DNA of 64,000 bases from Escherichia coli. GTDB taxonomy: Bacteria; Pseudomonadota; Gammaproteobacteria; Enterobacterales; Enterobacteriaceae. Location of the stretch: the NCBI RefSeq assembly GCF_009931435.1, contig NZ_CP043414.1, one strand, 5' to 3'. The first letter of the stretch is position 1. Every line of letters begins with the position of its first letter. The position numbers and the translations under genes are program-made. Shown here piece by piece: positions 11,930 through 20,030 of this stretch. The notes beneath the pieces were generated by a model. It ran no database searches. It was given only the letters and a program-made list of their open reading frames with translations, and was not told where the DNA came from.

Positions 11930-13036
11930 ATGAATGTGTTGCGTAGTGGACTCGTGACGATGCTGCTGCTGGCTGCCTTTAGTGTTCAGGCAGCCTGCAA
12001 CTGGCCTGCCTGGGAGCAGTTCAAAAAGGATTACATCAGTCAGGAAGGGCGCGTCATCGACCCCAGCGACGCGCGCAAAATCACCACCTCCGAAGGGCAA
12101 AGTTACGGCATGTTCTTTGCCCTGGCGGCTAACGACCGTGCAGCTTTCGATAATATTCTCGACTGGACGCAGAACAATCTCGCTCAGGGTTCTTTAAAAG
12201 AACATTTGCCCGCCTGGCTGTGGGGCAAGAAAGAGAACAGTAAGTGGGAAGTGCTGGACAGCAATTCGGCCTCTGATGGTGATGTCTGGATGGCCTGGTC
12301 GTTGCTGGAGGCGGGGCGTTTGTGGAAAGAGCAGCGTTATACCGACATCGGCAGCGCGTTGTTAAAACGTATTGCGCGGGAGGAAGTGGTGACGGTGCCT
12401 GGGCTGGGTTCCATGTTGTTACCGGGCAAAGTGGGATTTGCTGAGGATAACAGCTGGCGTTTTAACCCCAGCTACCTGCCGCCGACGCTGGCGCAGTATT
12501 TCACCCGCTTTGGCGCGCCGTGGACTACGCTGCGCGAAACCAATCAACGTTTATTGCTGGAAACCGCCCCGAAAGGCTTTTCACCAGACTGGGTGCGCTA
12601 TGAGAAAGACAAAGGCTGGCAGCTAAAAGCCGAAAAAACATTGATCAGCAGCTACGACGCTATCCGTGTTTACATGTGGGTAGGCATGATGCCTGACAGC
12701 GATCCGCAAAAAGCGCGGATGCTCAACCGGTTTAAACCGATGGCGACATTCACCGAGAAAAACGGCTATCCGCCGGAAAAAGTCGATGTGGCTACGGGGA
12801 AAGCGCAGGGTAAAGGACCGGTCGGTTTTTCTGCCGCCATGCTGCCCTTTTTACAAAACCGCGATGCACAGGCCGTTCAGCGCCAGCGCGTGGCCGATAA
12901 CTTTCCCGGCAGCGATGCCTATTACAACTATGTGCTGACCCTGTTTGGACAAGGCTGGGATCAACACCGTTTCCGCTTCTCGACAAAAGGTGAGTTATTA
13001 CCTGACTGGGGCCAGGAATGCGCAAATTCACACTAA
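11930..13036 (+). CDS. bcsZ: Endo-1,4-beta-glucanase BcsZ (GH8 family)
   Basis: 368-aa ORF with signal peptide, starting MNVLRSG...; matches BcsZ. Confidence 0.95.
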
Positions 13037-16000
13037 ACATATTCACGCTTTCCCTCGGTCTGGCCGTCATGCCGATGGTCGAGGCAGCACCAACCGCTCA
13101 GCAACAGTTGCTGGAGCAAGTTCGGTTAGGCGAAGCGACCCATCGTGAAGACCTGGTGCAACAGTCGTTGTATCGGCTGGAACTTATTGATCCAAATAAC
13201 CCGGACGTCGTTGCCGCCCGTTTCCGTTCTCTGTTACGTCAGGGCGATATTGATGGCGCGCAAAAACAGCTCGATCGGCTGTCGCAGTTAGCGCCGAGTT
13301 CAAATGCGTATAAATCGTCGCGGACCACAATGTTACTTTCTACGCCGGATGGTCGTCAGGCACTGCAACAGGCAAGATTGCAGGCGACTACCGGTCATGC
13401 AGAAGAAGCTGTGGCGAGTTACAACAAGCTGTTCAACGGTGCGCCGCCGGAAGGTGACATTGCCGTCGAGTACTGGAGTACGGTGGCGAAAATTCCGGCT
13501 CGCCGTGGCGAAGCGATTAATCAGCTAAAACGCATTAATGCGGATACGCCAGGCAATACGGGCCTGCAAAACAATCTGGCGCTATTGCTGTTTAGTAGCG
13601 ATCGCCGTGATGAAGGTTTTGCTGTACTGGAGCAGATGGCGAAATCGAACGCCGGGCGCGAGGGAGCCTCTAAAATCTGGTACGGGCAGATTAAAGACAT
13701 GCCTGTCAGCGATGCCAGCGTGCAGGCGCTGAAAAAATATCTCTCTATCTTTAGCGATGGCGACAGCGTAGCTGCTGCGCAATCGCAACTGGCAGAACAG
13801 CAAAAACAACTGGCCGATCCTGCTTTCCGCGCACGTGTGCAAGGTTTAGCGGCGGTGGACTCTGGCATGGCGGGTAAAGCCATTCCCGAACTACAACAGG
13901 CAGTGCGGGCGAACCCGAAAGACAGTGAGGCACTGGGGGCGCTGGGCCAGGCGTATTCTCAGAAAGGCGATCGCGTCAATGCGGTGGCGAATCTGGAAAA
14001 AGCCCTCGCACTGGACCCGCACAGCAGCAACAACGACAAATGGAACAGTCTGCTGAAAGTAAACCGCTACTGGCTGGCGATCCAGCAGGGTGATGCCGCG
14101 CTGAAAGCCAATAATCCTGACCGGGCAGAACGCCTGTTCCAGCAGGCGCGCAGTGTCGATAACACCGACAGCTATGCGGTGTTGGGGCTGGGCGATGTGG
14201 CGATGGCGCGAAAAGATTATTCCGCCGCCGAACGCTATTACCAGCAGACGCTGCGCATGGACAGCGGCAATACCAACGCCGTGCGCGGGCTGGCGAATAT
14301 TTACCGCCAGCAATCGCCAGAAAAAGCAGAAGCGTTTATCGCCTCGCTCTCTGCCAGCCAGCGGCGCAGCATTGATGATATCGAACGTAGCCTGCAAAAC
14401 GATCATCTGGCACAGCAGGCAGAGGCACTGGAAAACCAGGGCAAATGGGCGCAGGCAGCAGCACTTCAGCGGCAACGACTGGCACTGGACCCCGGCAGTG
14501 TATGGATTACTTACCGACTTTCGCAGGATCTCTGGCAGGCCGGACAACGCAGCCAGGCCGATACGTTAATGCGCAATCTCGCGCAGCAGAAGCCGAACGA
14601 CCCGGAGCAGGTTTACGCTTACGGGCTGTACCTCTCAGGTCACGACCAGGACAGAGCGGCACTGGCGCATATCAACAGCCTGCCGCGCGCGCAGTGGAAC
14701 AGCAATATTCAGGAGCTGGTTAATCGGCTGCAAAGCGACCAGGTGCTGGAAACCGCTAATCGCCTGCGAGAAAACGGTAAAGAGGCAGAAGCAGAAGCGA
14801 TGCTGCGCCAGCAACCGCCTTCCTCGCGTATTGATCTGACGCTGGCTGACTGGGCGCAACAACGACGTGATTACGCTGCTGCCCGTGCTGCATATCAGAA
14901 TGTCCTGACGCGGGAGCCAACTAACGCTGATGCCATTCTTGGCCTGACGGAAGTGGATATCGCTGCCGGTGACAAAGCGGCGGCACGTAGCCAACTGGCG
15001 AAACTGCCTGCCACCGATAACGCCTCCCTGAACACACAGCGGCGCGTGGCGCTGGCGCAGGCGCAGCTTGGCGATACCGCAGCGGCGCAGCAGACATTTA
15101 ACAAGCTGATCCCGCAGGCAAAATCTCAGCCACCGTCGATGGAAAGCGCGATGGTACTGCGCGACGGTGCGAAGTTTGAAGCGCAGGCGGGCGATCCAAC
15201 GCAGGCGCTGGAAACCTACAAAGACGCGATGGTCGCATCCGGTGTGACCACGACGCGTCCGCAGGATAACGACACCTTTACCCGGCTGACTCGTAACGAC
15301 GAGAAAGATGACTGGCTGAAACGCGGCGTGCGCAGCGATGCGGCAGATCTCTACCGCCAGCAGGATCTTAACGTCACCCTTGAGCATGATTATTGGGGAT
15401 CGAGCGGCACCGGTGGTTATTCCGATCTGAAAGCGCACACCACTATGTTGCAGGTGGACGCACCGTATTCTGACGGGCGGATGTTCTTTCGCAGTGATTT
15501 CGTCAATATGAACGTCGGCAGTTTCTCCACGAATGCCGATGGCAAATGGGATGACAACTGGGGCACCTGTACATTACAGGACTGTAGCGGCAACCGCAGC
15601 CAGTCGGATTCCGGTGCCAGCGTGGCGGTCGGCTGGCGAAATGACGTCTGGAGCTGGGATATCGGCACCACGCCGATGGGCTTCAACGTGGTGGATGTGG
15701 TCGGCGGCATCAGTTACAGCGATGATATCGGGCCGCTGGGTTACACAGTTAACGCCCATCGTCGGCCCATCTCCAGTTCTTTGCTGGCCTTTGGCGGGCA
15801 AAAAGACTCCCCGAGCAATACCGGGAAAAAATGGGGCGGCGTGCGTGCCGACGGCGTGGGGCTAAGCCTGAGCTACGATAAAGGTGAAGCAAACGGCGTC
15901 TGGGCATCGCTTAGCGGTGACCAGTTAACCGGTAAAAATGTCGAAGATAACTGGCGCGTGCGCTGGATGACGGGCTATTACTATAAGGTCATCAACCAGA

Positions 16001-16491
16001 ATAATCGCCGTGTGACCATTGGCCTGAACAATATGATCTGGCATTACGACAAAGACCTGAGTGGGTACTCACTCGGTCAGGGCGGTTACTACAGCCCGCA
16101 GGAATACCTGTCGTTTGCCATTCCGGTGATGTGGCGTGAACGGACAGAAAACTGGTCGTGGGAGCTGGGGGCGTCTGGTTCGTGGTCGCATTCGCGCACC
16201 AAAACCATGCCGCGGTATCCGCTGATGAATCTGATCCCGACTGACTGGCAGGAAGAAGCTGCGCGGCAATCCAACGATGGCGGCAGCAGTCAGGGCTTTG
16301 GCTATACGGCGCGGGCATTACTTGAGCGTCGCGTCACATCCAACTGGTTTGTCGGTACGGCAATTGATATCCAGCAAGCGAAGGATTACGCGCCCAGCCA
16401 TTTCCTGCTCTACGTACGTTATTCCGCCGCCGGATGGCAGGGTGACATGGATTTACCGCCGCAGCCGCTGATACCTTACGCCGACTGGTAA
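13018..16491 (+). CDS. bcsC: Cellulose synthase outer-membrane subunit BcsC (TPR repeats plus C-terminal beta-barrel)
   Basis: 1157-aa ORF overlapping the bcsZ 3' end by 19 nt; matches BcsC. Confidence 0.95.
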
Positions 16492-16572
16492 GTTTTCAGA
16501 TAGCGCCTCTCTTAATGCCGCTGCGATCGGGTATACTCGGGCGGCAATCTGGGATTTCCGGGGGGAGACAAT

Positions 16573-18561
16573 TTGCGCGTAAGTCGCTCGTTAACAATCA
16601 AGCAGATGGCAATGGTGGCAGCCGTTGTCCTGGTGTTCGTTTTTATTTTTTGCACCGTTTTGCTGTTCCATCTGGTCCAGCAGAATCGCTATAACACGGC
16701 TACGCAACTGGAAAGCATTGCTCGCTCTGTCCGCGAACCCTTATCTTCTGCCATTTTGAAAGGCGATATTCCCGAAGCGGAAGCTATTCTTGCCAGCATT
16801 AAACCGGCAGGCGTGGTCAGCCGTGCCGATGTGGTGCTGCCTAACCAGTTCCAGGCGCTGCGTAAAAGTTTTATTCCAGAGCGTCCGGTGCCGGTAATGG
16901 TTACTCGCATGTTTGAGCTACCGGTGCAAATCTCGCTGGGCGTTTACTCGCTGGAACGTCCGGCAAACCCGCAGCCAATTGCCTATCTGGTGCTACAGGC
17001 GGATTCCTTCCGCATGTATAAGTTCGTGATGAGCACCCTCTCGACGTTAGTGACCATTTACTTACTTTTGTCGTTAATATTGACGGTGGCGATTAGCTGG
17101 TGCATTAACCGCCTGATTTTGCATCCGTTACGCAATATTGCTCGTGAACTTAACGCCATCCCAGCCCAGGAGCTTGTTGGTCACCAACTGGCATTACCAC
17201 GTCTGCATCAGGACGATGAAATCGGTATGCTGGTGCGCAGTTACAACCTCAACCAGCAATTGCTGCAGCGCCATTATGAAGAACAGAACGAAAATGCGAT
17301 GCGCTTCCCGGTGTCGGATTTGCCGAACAAAGCCTTGCTGATGGAGATGCTGGAGCAGGTTGTCGCGCGTAAACAAACCACCGCGCTGATGATTATCACC
17401 TGTGAAACCCTGCGTGATACTGCGGGCGTGCTGAAAGAGGCGCAACGAGAAATTCTGCTGCTGACGCTGGTGGAAAAACTCAAATCGGTACTGTCGCCAC
17501 GTATGATCCTCGCGCAGATTAGTGGTTATGACTTTGCTGTCATTGCCAACGGTGTACAGGAGCCGTGGCATGCTATTACTTTAGGTCAGCAAGTGCTCAC
17601 TATCATGAGCGAGCGCCTGCCGATTGAACGTATTCAACTCCGTCCGCACTGTAGCATTGGCGTGGCGATGTTCTACGGCGATCTCACCGCCGAACAGCTT
17701 TACAGTCGCGCTATTTCTGCGGCATTTACCGCTCGCCATAAAGGTAAGAATCAGATTCAGTTCTTTGATCCGCAGCAGATGGAAGCCGCCCAACAGCGGT
17801 TGACGGAAGAGAGCGATATCCTTAATGCACTGGAAAATCATCAGTTTGCGATTTGGTTACAGCCACAGGTCGAGATGACCAGCGGTAAACTGGTCAGTGC
17901 GGAAGTGTTACTGCGTATCCAGCAACCGGATGGCAGTTGGGATCTGCCGGATGGCTTAATCGATCGCATTGAGTGCTGTGGGCTGATGGTTACCGTCGGT
18001 CACTGGGTGCTGGAAGAGTCCTGTCGACTGCTGGCTGCCTGGCAAGAGCGCGGCATTATGTTGCCCTTGTCGGTAAACCTCTCAGCGCTGCAACTGATGC
18101 ACCCGAATATGGTAGCGGATATGCTGGAACTGTTAACCCGCTATCGCATTCAGCCGGGAACACTGATTCTGGAAGTGACAGAAAGCCGACGTATTGACGA
18201 CCCTCATGCAGCGGTGGCAATCCTCCGCCCGTTGCGTAATGCCGGCGTTCGGGTGGCGCTGGATGATTTCGGCATGGGCTACGCAGGGCTGCGTCAGCTG
18301 CAGCATATGAAATCGTTGCCAATCGACGTGTTAAAAATCGACAAAATGTTTGTTGAAGGCTTGCCGGAAGATAGCAGCATGATTGCTGCAATTATCATGT
18401 TGGCGCAAAGCCTGAACTTACAAATGATTGCCGAAGGCGTGGAGACTGAAGCACAACGCGACTGGCTGGCAAAAGCGGGCGTTGGTATTGCCCAGGGCTT
18501 CCTTTTTGCTCGCCCACTCCCTATTGAAATCTTCGAAGAGAGTTACCTGGAAGAAAAGTAG
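16573..18561 (+). CDS. pdeK: c-di-GMP phosphodiesterase PdeK (YhjK), membrane GGDEF-EAL protein
   Basis: 662-aa ORF with N-terminal TM segment and EAL region. The track start at 16573 is TTG; the nearest in-frame ATG is at about 16606. Confidence 0.9.

Positions 18562-18707: not shown

Positions 18708-20030
<1,323 letters not shown>

What the first reader, a model, noticed from the sequence alone, without database searches (positions are those of the whole stretch)
16573..16608. pdeK start codon is ambiguous (TTG versus downstream ATG)
The longest ORF begins with TTG at 16573 ([15 protein letters not shown]...), and the first ATG is 11 codons in. The choice changes whether the N-terminal positively charged segment precedes the first TM helix.
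Basis: seen in the sequence. Interest (0 to 1): 0.15.

Follow-up and report, generated by a model that had tools for sequence, protein, structure and literature searches.

The report
pdeK starts at the TTG
The E. coli membrane c-di-GMP phosphodiesterase gene pdeK (yhjK/hmsP) begins at the TTG at 16573, not at the ATG 11 codons downstream, as comparison with about 90 related species shows; this is an ordinary annotation question, and current reference annotation already has it right.

Summary
The longest ORF (16573-18561, +, 662 aa) starts with TTG, and the first in-frame ATG is codon 12 (16606). The ambiguity disappears once other species are compared. In 87 of 88 orthologous loci, from Enterobacteriaceae to Pectobacterium, Pantoea, Sodalis and Baumannia, the homologous codon is TTG. 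It is preceded by a conserved GGAG(A) Shine-Dalgarno 5-9 nt upstream. The sequence further upstream is unconserved. Codons 2-11 vary almost only at third positions (111 changes against 8), so they are translated. In five lineages an in-frame stop lies 5 codons upstream of the TTG with no other start between. SD pairing is -9.4 kcal/mol for the TTG and -0.4 to -2.2 for the downstream candidates. RefSeq/PGAP, the UniRef entry and the curated HmsP model all use the 662-aa form; 651-aa and 649-aa versions persist in older or automatic annotations. No direct experimental N-terminus was found. Two minor points are mildly interesting: TTG never switches to ATG or GTG, and the peptide RSLTIKQM is nearly invariant. 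Verdict: ordinary, already known, low interest.

The parts
16573..18561 (+). pdeK (yhjK/hmsP) coding sequence, 662 aa plus stop; GAPES3-HAMP-GGDEF-EAL inner-membrane protein
   Evidence: ORF list. Pfam: GAPES3 36-155, HAMP 178-231, GGDEF 247-394, EAL 415-648. NCBIfam HmsP equivalog NF008807 scores 780.6 bits against a cutoff of 733. RefSeq CDS has the same coordinates in three E. coli genomes.
16564..16568 (+). Shine-Dalgarno GGAGA, inside the G-run 16560-16568; GGAG ends 5 nt before the TTG
   Evidence: Duplex with the 16S 3' end is -9.4 kcal/mol; the in-ORF background has mean -2.3, sd 2.1 and minimum -6.6. Positions -11 to -7 have 0.1-0.6 bit entropy across 80 species, against about 1.7 bit further upstream. 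An SD core lies 5-9 nt from the start in 89 of 90 stored loci.
16573..16575 (+). TTG initiation codon (the real start)
   Evidence: TTG at the homologous position in 83/83 Enterobacteriaceae loci and in 6 of 7 distant orthologues. Codon periodicity of substitutions begins exactly here.
16576..16605 (+). Codons 2-11, [10 protein letters not shown]: cytoplasmic, positively charged N-terminal segment (R2, R5, K10)
   Evidence: Entropy by codon position is 0.09/0.00/1.18 bit. Parsimony gives 111 third-position changes against 8 at positions 1 and 2. The peptide is conserved in orthologues only about 52% identical overall. The AF2 helix starts at S6 and is continuous with TM1.
16606..16608 (+).
   Evidence: No SD: duplex -0.4 kcal/mol. 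It is invariant as a residue, but the 11 codons before it are under protein-level constraint.
16612..16617 (+). ATG codon 14 and GTG codon 15: further in-frame candidates; ATG 16612 starts the 649-aa legacy or automatic calls
   Evidence: Not conserved as start codons: codon 14 is ATG in 74/83 loci and codon 15 is GTG in 30/83. SD duplex is -2.2 kcal/mol, and both lie inside a predicted hairpin. The 649-aa form is present in databases.
16606..16677 (+). TM1 (residues 12-35, [24 protein letters not shown])
   Evidence: Kyte-Doolittle 19-residue windows above 1.6 start at residues 5-20. The segment is helical with pLDDT 86-94.
16532..16537 (+). -10-like hexamer TATACT in the bcsC-pdeK spacer (inferred promoter element, upstream of the TTG)
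   Evidence: The block GGGTATACTC is conserved in Escherichia, Citrobacter and Salmonella only. It is not called by the strict promoter scan, so it remains an inference.

Best explanation
pdeK is translated from the TTG at 16573 by ordinary Shine-Dalgarno-led initiation, giving a 662-residue protein. Met12 (ATG 16606) is an internal residue at the start of the first transmembrane helix. The 11-residue N-terminus ([14 protein letters not shown], charge +3) stays in the cytoplasm. It acts as the positively charged flank that orients TM1 N-in. That places the GAPES3 sensor domain in the periplasm and the HAMP-GGDEF-EAL module in the cytoplasm. Shown here: translation of codons 2-11, conservation of the TTG and its SD, and the absence of an SD for the downstream candidates. 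Inferred: the topological role of the charged segment, from the positive-inside rule.
For: (1) TTG occupies the homologous position in 83/83 Enterobacteriaceae loci and in Pectobacterium, Sodalis, Pantoea, Baumannia and two unnamed lineages. (2) A GGAG(A) SD lies 5-9 nt upstream in 89/90 loci. In the window it pairs at -9.4 kcal/mol, against -0.4, -2.2 and -2.2 for ATG16606, ATG16612 and GTG16615; the background minimum is -6.6. (3) Conservation switches at the TTG from about 1.7 bit per site in all phases upstream of the SD to 0.09/0.00/1.18 bit by codon position in codons 2-11. There are 111 third-position substitutions against 8 at the other positions. This is the signature of a translated, constrained peptide. 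(4) In L048, L051, L069, L074 and L084 an in-frame stop lies 5 codons upstream of the TTG with no other start codon between, so the TTG is the only way to translate the conserved peptide. (5) In L087 the TTG is lost (TTA) and an ATG 4 codons upstream replaces it, which keeps the peptide and adds K and R. (6) Position 1 of the curated HmsP equivalog profile aligns to residue 2. PGAP/RefSeq annotates the TTG in three genomes, and the UniRef PdeK entry is the 662-aa form. (7) Residues 1-11 carry 3 K/R and 0 D/E. The first 15 periplasmic residues after TM1 carry 1 K/R and 1 D/E. The AF2 helix begins at S6. (8) No known RNA family and no conserved leader structure offers a non-coding explanation for the conservation.
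Against: No direct experimental evidence for the N-terminus was found. There was no N-terminal peptide, retapamulin/Onc112 start-site peak or toeprint for pdeK/yhjK/STM3615 in the papers and supplements that could be searched. Met12 is itself invariant. The region just upstream of it is A-rich and predicted to be mostly unpaired (P(unpaired) 0.67), so a minor internal initiation event cannot be excluded. Several gene callers chose Met12 or Met14.
Confidence: 0.93

Rival explanations
1. Dual initiation: the TTG gives the main 662-aa protein, and ribosomes also start at ATG 16606 (or 16612). This would make a minor isoform without the charged N-terminus, possibly with altered membrane insertion or stability.
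For: ATG codon 12 is invariant in 83/83 loci and in all distant orthologues. The 12 nt upstream are A-rich and predicted to be largely unpaired. TTG is a weak start, initiating in the 10-100% of AUG range reported for the canonical trio (bioRxiv 10.1101/063800), which could leave room for downstream initiation.
Against: There is no SD before ATG 16606 (-0.4 kcal/mol, at background). Invariance of the ATG is fully explained by Met having a single codon in a strongly conserved peptide. Ribosomes elongating from the TTG, 33 nt upstream, would occlude the site. An isoform starting directly with the hydrophobic helix would lack any cytoplasmic positive charge. ATG 16612 and GTG 16615 are not conserved.
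Confidence: 0.05
2. ATG 16606 is the only true start (651-aa protein), and the conserved 33 nt upstream are an untranslated regulatory leader.
For: ATG is the commonest start codon. A 651-aa version exists in public databases, including a K-12 MG1655 entry. Pectobacterium and Brenneria homologues are sometimes called from this Met.
Against: The 33 nt vary only at every third base, in the pdeK frame, with all amino acids preserved. A non-coding element would not show this pattern. There is no conserved RNA structure, no Rfam family and no SD for this ATG. The conserved SD is positioned for the TTG.
Confidence: 0.01
3. ATG 16612 (649-aa protein, the legacy or automatic annotation) or GTG 16615 is the start.
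For: A 649-aa version is widespread in databases (present on at least 1000 contigs). It was chosen by gene callers for several E. coli, Escherichia and Citrobacter-like sequences (P0001-P0006).
Against: Codon 14 is not ATG in 9/83 loci (GCG, ACG, ATA). It is Thr, Ala, Ile or Leu in distant orthologues. Codon 15 is GTG in only 30/83. SD pairing is at background, and both codons lie in a predicted hairpin with P(unpaired) about 0. This start would remove two residues of TM1 as well as the conserved peptide.
Confidence: 0.01

Closest known systems
E. coli K-12 PdeK (YhjK, b3529), annotated in RefSeq as 'biofilm formation regulator HmsP' (WP_001266293.1, 662 aa)
   Same: Same gene. The window's start region (-90 to +60) is identical in nucleotide sequence to the K-12-lineage genome. 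The protein differs at four residues: L113M, K199Q, K408Q and G599E. Flanking genes are the same, bcsC upstream and dctA downstream. The annotated start is the same TTG.
   Different: Nothing relevant to the start. The window is 100% identical over 701 nt to strain Z0117EC0005 (WP_001266333.1) and 97-98% identical to most E. coli.
Yersinia pestis HmsP, the characterised EAL phosphodiesterase that gives the family its RefSeq name
   Same: Same NCBIfam equivalog family (NF008807). It is an inner-membrane protein that interacts with other Hms proteins (PMC3084805, citing Bobrov et al. 2008 for topology).
   Different: The Yersinia locus was not retrieved here, so its start codon was not checked. 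The topology paper (PubMed 18279344) is not held and could not be read.
LapD and DgcN/YfiN: periplasmic-sensor, HAMP-containing c-di-GMP signalling proteins
   Same: Same overall plan: TM1, periplasmic domain, TM2, HAMP, then GGDEF with or without EAL. Weak profile matches were found.
   Different: Their profiles align only from residue 12-14 of PdeK. The conserved N-terminal RSLTIKQ peptide is therefore specific to the HmsP/PdeK family. Scores are far below their family cutoffs.
Genes with conserved weak or non-AUG start codons, e.g. infC and pcnB with AUU (cited in bioRxiv 10.1101/063800)
   Same: A sub-optimal start codon retained over long evolutionary distance, and a possible means of keeping expression low.
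   Different: TTG is a canonical start, used by about 3-4% of E. coli genes. No autoregulatory mechanism such as IF3 discrimination is shown or implied for pdeK. The statistical support for selection on TTG itself is modest (P about 0.02).

Membership tests
HmsP/PdeK (NCBIfam NF008807, PRK11829 equivalog) | Whole-protein score at or above the curated cutoff | tested here: met
   780.6 bits against a cutoff of 733; residues 2-659 align to profile positions 1-663 of 670.
HmsP/PdeK (NCBIfam NF008807, PRK11829 equivalog) | Domain order TM1 - GAPES3 periplasmic domain - TM2 - HAMP - (degenerate) GGDEF - EAL | tested here: met
   Pfam: GAPES3 36-155, HAMP 178-231, GGDEF 247-394, EAL 415-648. Hydrophobic stretches at residues 12-35 and about 150-184.
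HmsP/PdeK (NCBIfam NF008807, PRK11829 equivalog) | Genomic position next to the cellulose (bcs) cluster and dctA in E. coli | tested here: met
   bcsC at 13018-16491 and dctA at 18744-20030; same arrangement in RefSeq genomes.
HmsP/PdeK (NCBIfam NF008807, PRK11829 equivalog) | c-di-GMP phosphodiesterase activity of the EAL domain | not testable with these tools
   Only domain homology is available (EAL E = 3.8e-60).
Canonical SD-led bacterial initiation at a TTG codon | Start codon is one of ATG/GTG/TTG and is conserved at the homologous position | tested here: met
   TTG in 87/88 distinct orthologous sequences.
Canonical SD-led bacterial initiation at a TTG codon | Anti-SD-complementary sequence 5-9 nt upstream | tested here: met
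   -9.4 kcal/mol, GGAG ending 5 nt upstream in the window; spacing 5-9 nt in 89/90 loci.
Canonical SD-led bacterial initiation at a TTG codon | Coding-type (third-position) substitution pattern begins at the proposed start | tested here: met
Canonical SD-led bacterial initiation at a TTG codon | Experimentally observed N-terminus or initiating-ribosome footprint | not testable with these tools
   No entry for pdeK/yhjK/STM3615 in the searchable supplements.
N-in signal-anchor TM1 (positive-inside rule) | Net positive cytoplasmic flank before a hydrophobic helix, and a less positive trans side | tested here: met
   Residues 1-11: 3 K/R, 0 D/E. Residues 36-50: 1 K/R, 1 D/E.
N-in signal-anchor TM1 (positive-inside rule) | Experimentally determined topology | not testable with these tools
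   The Yersinia HmsP topology study (Bobrov et al. 2008) is cited in PMC3084805 but is not held.

The most novel reading that the evidence does not exclude
The weak TTG start and the nearly invariant cytoplasmic peptide [11 protein letters not shown] may both be functional features and not incidental ones. On this reading TTG is kept by selection, never upgraded to ATG or GTG across at least four families of Enterobacterales, to hold PdeK synthesis low or make it responsive to initiation fidelity. The peptide would be a specific interaction or regulatory motif, for example contacting the HAMP/TM2 junction or a partner in the cellulose or Hms machinery, beyond simply supplying positive charges.
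Probability: 0.3. Interest if true: 0.3.

Novelty: already known. Interest (0 to 1): 0.08.

Why it matters
It matters little beyond annotation hygiene. Using the correct 662-aa form matters to anyone who builds pdeK constructs, N-terminal fusions, topology reporters or deletion alleles. Starting a construct at Met12 or Met14 would remove a conserved, positively charged cytoplasmic segment and probably compromise membrane insertion. It is also a reminder that 651- and 649-aa versions still circulate in databases. The conserved TTG and the invariant N-terminal peptide are small leads for people studying how c-di-GMP enzymes are kept at low abundance.

Tried and rejected
(1) A search for direct experimental evidence found nothing. 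Full-text searches for yhjK/pdeK with start-codon, ribosome-profiling or N-terminomics terms returned nothing relevant. Supplements of TRAINSPOTTER, Giess et al. 2017, the mBio 2024 riboproteogenomics paper and INRI-seq do not mention the gene or its peptide. The REPARATION and retapamulin papers have no supplements held as text. (2) The Salmonella STM3615 paper's 'start codon' mention was not among the passages shown, and the shown passages say nothing about the start. The Yersinia RovM paper reports hmsP primer extension only in supplementary figures. (3) The Bobrov 2008 topology paper is not held. (4) The promoter/terminator scan of 16300-16800 found nothing at its thresholds, so the TATACT element remains an inference from conservation. 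(5) A conserved leader structure or SD-sequestering hairpin was rejected: the consensus energy is -1.5 kcal/mol with almost no covariation, and the UUUCC/GGAGA pairing predicted in E. coli is lineage-specific. (6) No Rfam family matches in 16350-16800. (7) No solved structure exists for the N-terminal module. (8) The minus-strand ORF 16512-16655 and the +2-frame ORF 16515-16694 were treated as chance ORFs, because the conservation pattern fits only the pdeK frame.

Full report
WHAT IS THERE. The window carries the E. coli bcsC - pdeK (yhjK/hmsP) - dctA region. The ORF 16573-18561 (+) is 662 codons and begins with TTG. The nearest in-frame stop is 20 codons upstream of the TTG, with no other start codon in between. 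The product has GAPES3 (36-155), HAMP (178-231), GGDEF (247-394) and EAL (415-648) domains. It scores above the curated cutoff of the HmsP equivalog model NF008807: 780.6 bits against 733. A 701-nt stretch around the start is present in 5,424 of 5,426 complete E. coli genomes. The start region from -90 to +60 is identical to that of a K-12-lineage genome.

IS THE START REALLY AMBIGUOUS? It is in the databases. The K-12 protein exists as a 662-aa form (RefSeq HmsP, UniRef PdeK), a 651-aa form from Met12 and a 649-aa form from Met14. Automatic gene callers chose all three starts for different orthologues. PGAP/RefSeq places the CDS start at the TTG in all three genomes inspected.

COMPARATIVE TEST. 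An alignment of orthologue N-terminal modules was used to fetch 80 loci, one per species, from Enterobacteriaceae genomes. Seven more distant loci were added: Pectobacterium, Sodalis, Pantoea, Baumannia and three unnamed.

1. The codon homologous to 16573 is TTG in 83/83 Enterobacteriaceae loci, counting three E. coli RefSeq loci, and in 6 of the 7 distant ones.

2. Positions -11 to -7 form a conserved GGAGA (0.1-0.6 bit entropy), while -60 to -13 is essentially unconstrained at about 1.7 bit in all three phases. An SD core sits 5-9 nt from the start codon in 89/90 loci.

3. From the TTG onward the substitution pattern becomes codon-periodic. Codons 2-11 have entropies of 0.09, 0.00 and 1.18 bit at positions 1, 2 and 3. 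On a neighbour-joining tree built from codons 16-120 only, they show 111 third-position changes against 8 at first and second positions. These 33 nt are therefore translated in the pdeK frame and are under strong purifying selection.

4. In five lineages (L048, L051, L069, L074, L084) an in-frame stop lies only 5 codons upstream of the TTG with no alternative start between. There the TTG is the only way to make the conserved peptide.

5. In the single exception, L087, the codon is TTA and an ATG four codons upstream gives [16 protein letters not shown]. When the TTG is lost, the replacement start lies upstream, not at Met12.

6. Codon 14 is ATG in 74/83 loci and codon 15 is GTG in 30/83, so neither is a conserved start.

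SIGNALS IN THE WINDOW ITSELF. The 20 nt upstream of the TTG pair with the 16S rRNA 3' end at -9.4 kcal/mol. The values for ATG 16606, ATG 16612 and GTG 16615 are -0.4, -2.2 and -2.2. These sit within the in-ORF background, which has mean -2.3, sd 2.1 and minimum -6.6. ATG 16612 and GTG 16615 lie in a predicted hairpin. No Rfam family matches the region. An alignment fold of 32 diverse leaders gives -1.5 kcal/mol with negligible covariation. No RNA element therefore competes with the coding explanation. A -10-like TATACT (16532-16537) is conserved in Escherichia, Citrobacter and Salmonella. If it is a real promoter element, transcription would start upstream of the TTG. The strict promoter scan did not call it.

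HOW IT MOST LIKELY WORKS. Translation starts at the TTG through ordinary SD-led initiation. The N-terminus [14 protein letters not shown] has three K/R and no acidic residues. It is followed directly by the hydrophobic stretch 12-35. The first 15 residues on the far side of that helix have one K/R and one D/E. By the positive-inside rule (established knowledge; an inference here) the segment stays cytoplasmic and orients TM1 N-in. That places GAPES3 in the periplasm and HAMP-GGDEF-EAL in the cytoplasm after TM2 (residues about 150-184). An AlphaFold2 model of residues 1-240 has mean pLDDT 84.8. Residues 1-5 are disordered, and a single helix runs from S6 through TM1 to residue 62. A protein starting at Met12 or Met14 would begin directly with the membrane helix and would lack this flank.

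WHAT IS NOT SHOWN. I found no direct experimental N-terminus or initiating-ribosome footprint for this gene in the searchable literature and supplements. A minor internal initiation at Met12 cannot be formally excluded. The ATG is invariant and the sequence before it is A-rich and predicted to be open. Even so, it has no SD, and its invariance is explained by Met having a single codon within an invariant peptide.

COMPARISON WITH WHAT IS KNOWN. This is pdeK/yhjK of E. coli, in the HmsP family, and the TTG start is already the reference annotation. Position 1 of the curated family profile aligns to residue 2. LapD and YfiN profiles match only from residues 12-14, so the N-terminal peptide is specific to the HmsP family. 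Nothing here is new in kind.

SMALL THINGS WORTH NOTING. TTG is never replaced by ATG or GTG. There are zero transversion events at its first base, against a mean of 8.4 (range 1-16, nine sites) at nearby four-fold degenerate sites. Belinky et al. (PMC5622118) find that UUG starts switch to AUG or GUG at about half the four-fold-site rate. Scaling by that ratio, about 4 events are expected, giving P(0) of about 0.02. This is suggestive of selection for a weak start but not compelling. TTG starts about 3-4% of E. coli genes and initiates within the 10-100% of AUG range reported for the three canonical codons (bioRxiv 10.1101/063800). The peptide RSLTIKQM is invariant or nearly so in orthologues whose sensor half is only about 50% identical. 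That is more conservation than a merely charged flank would need.

VERDICT. The claimed ambiguity is resolved in favour of the TTG with high confidence (0.93). The finding is ordinary and already reflected in current reference annotation, and its interest is low.

Noticed in passing
window 16573-16575 and homologous codon in L004-L090: The TTG start is never exchanged for ATG or GTG in 87/88 lineages spanning Enterobacteriaceae, Pectobacteriaceae, Erwiniaceae and Sodalis/Baumannia. There are 0 transversions, against a mean of 8.4 at neighbouring four-fold sites. After scaling by published UUG switch rates, about 4 events are expected (P about 0.02). This may reflect selection for a weak start.
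   Followed up: partly
window 16576-16608 (residues 2-12): The cytoplasmic peptide [11 protein letters not shown] is the most conserved stretch of the N-terminal half; S6-K10 and M12 are invariant in orthologues about 50% identical overall. LapD and YfiN profiles do not cover it. Its function beyond supplying charge is unknown.
   Followed up: partly
L087:401-460: One metagenomic orthologue has TTA in place of the TTG and P in place of R2. It has a new ATG four codons upstream ([16 protein letters not shown]) with no obvious SD. This is a natural start-codon relocation that preserves the peptide.
   Followed up: partly
L084 (Pectobacterium sp. A5351, CP116477.1 88708-90692) and P0066-P0120: Pectobacterium and Brenneria homologues are only about 383-396 aa (GAPES3, HAMP, faint GGDEF) and lack the EAL domain entirely. 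In L084 the gene lies between bcsG and an SDF-family (dctA-like) transporter gene. They cannot be phosphodiesterases.
   Followed up: no
L085 (Sodalis) 401-1901; L089 (Baumannia) 401-1126: In these insect endosymbionts the gene is truncated or split: 366 aa, then 67 aa, then an EAL fragment in Sodalis, and 241 aa in Baumannia. This is consistent with pseudogenisation, yet TTG, SD and the N-terminal peptide are still intact.
   Followed up: no
window 16523-16545: The block GATCGGGTATACTCGGGCGGCA, containing a -10-like TATACT at 16532-16537, is conserved in Escherichia, Citrobacter and Salmonella but absent in other genera. Those genera instead show a hairpin plus T-run, terminator-like, after bcsC. 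The pdeK promoter arrangement therefore appears to differ between clades.
   Followed up: partly
window 16609-16631: A predicted 9-bp hairpin (GGCAAUGGU / GCCGUUGUC) covers ATG 16612 and GTG 16615. A weaker UUUCC/GGAGA pairing could partly mask the SD in E. coli. Neither is conserved across genera.
   Followed up: partly
window 16300-17000: This segment is 100% identical to E. coli strain Z0117EC0005 (dog, South Korea). Only 19 of 5,550 records are at least 99% identical, and most E. coli are 97-98% identical. PdeK differs from the K-12-lineage protein at L113M, K199Q, K408Q and G599E.
   Followed up: no
E. coli genome hit H25 (NZ_CP063488.1, 172-kb record, positions 1-158): 127 matches to this chromosomal bcsC/pdeK region fall on records labelled as plasmids. 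The example seen is a bcsC fragment at the very start of a 172-kb record, which may be a mis-assigned or chimeric replicon.
   Followed up: no
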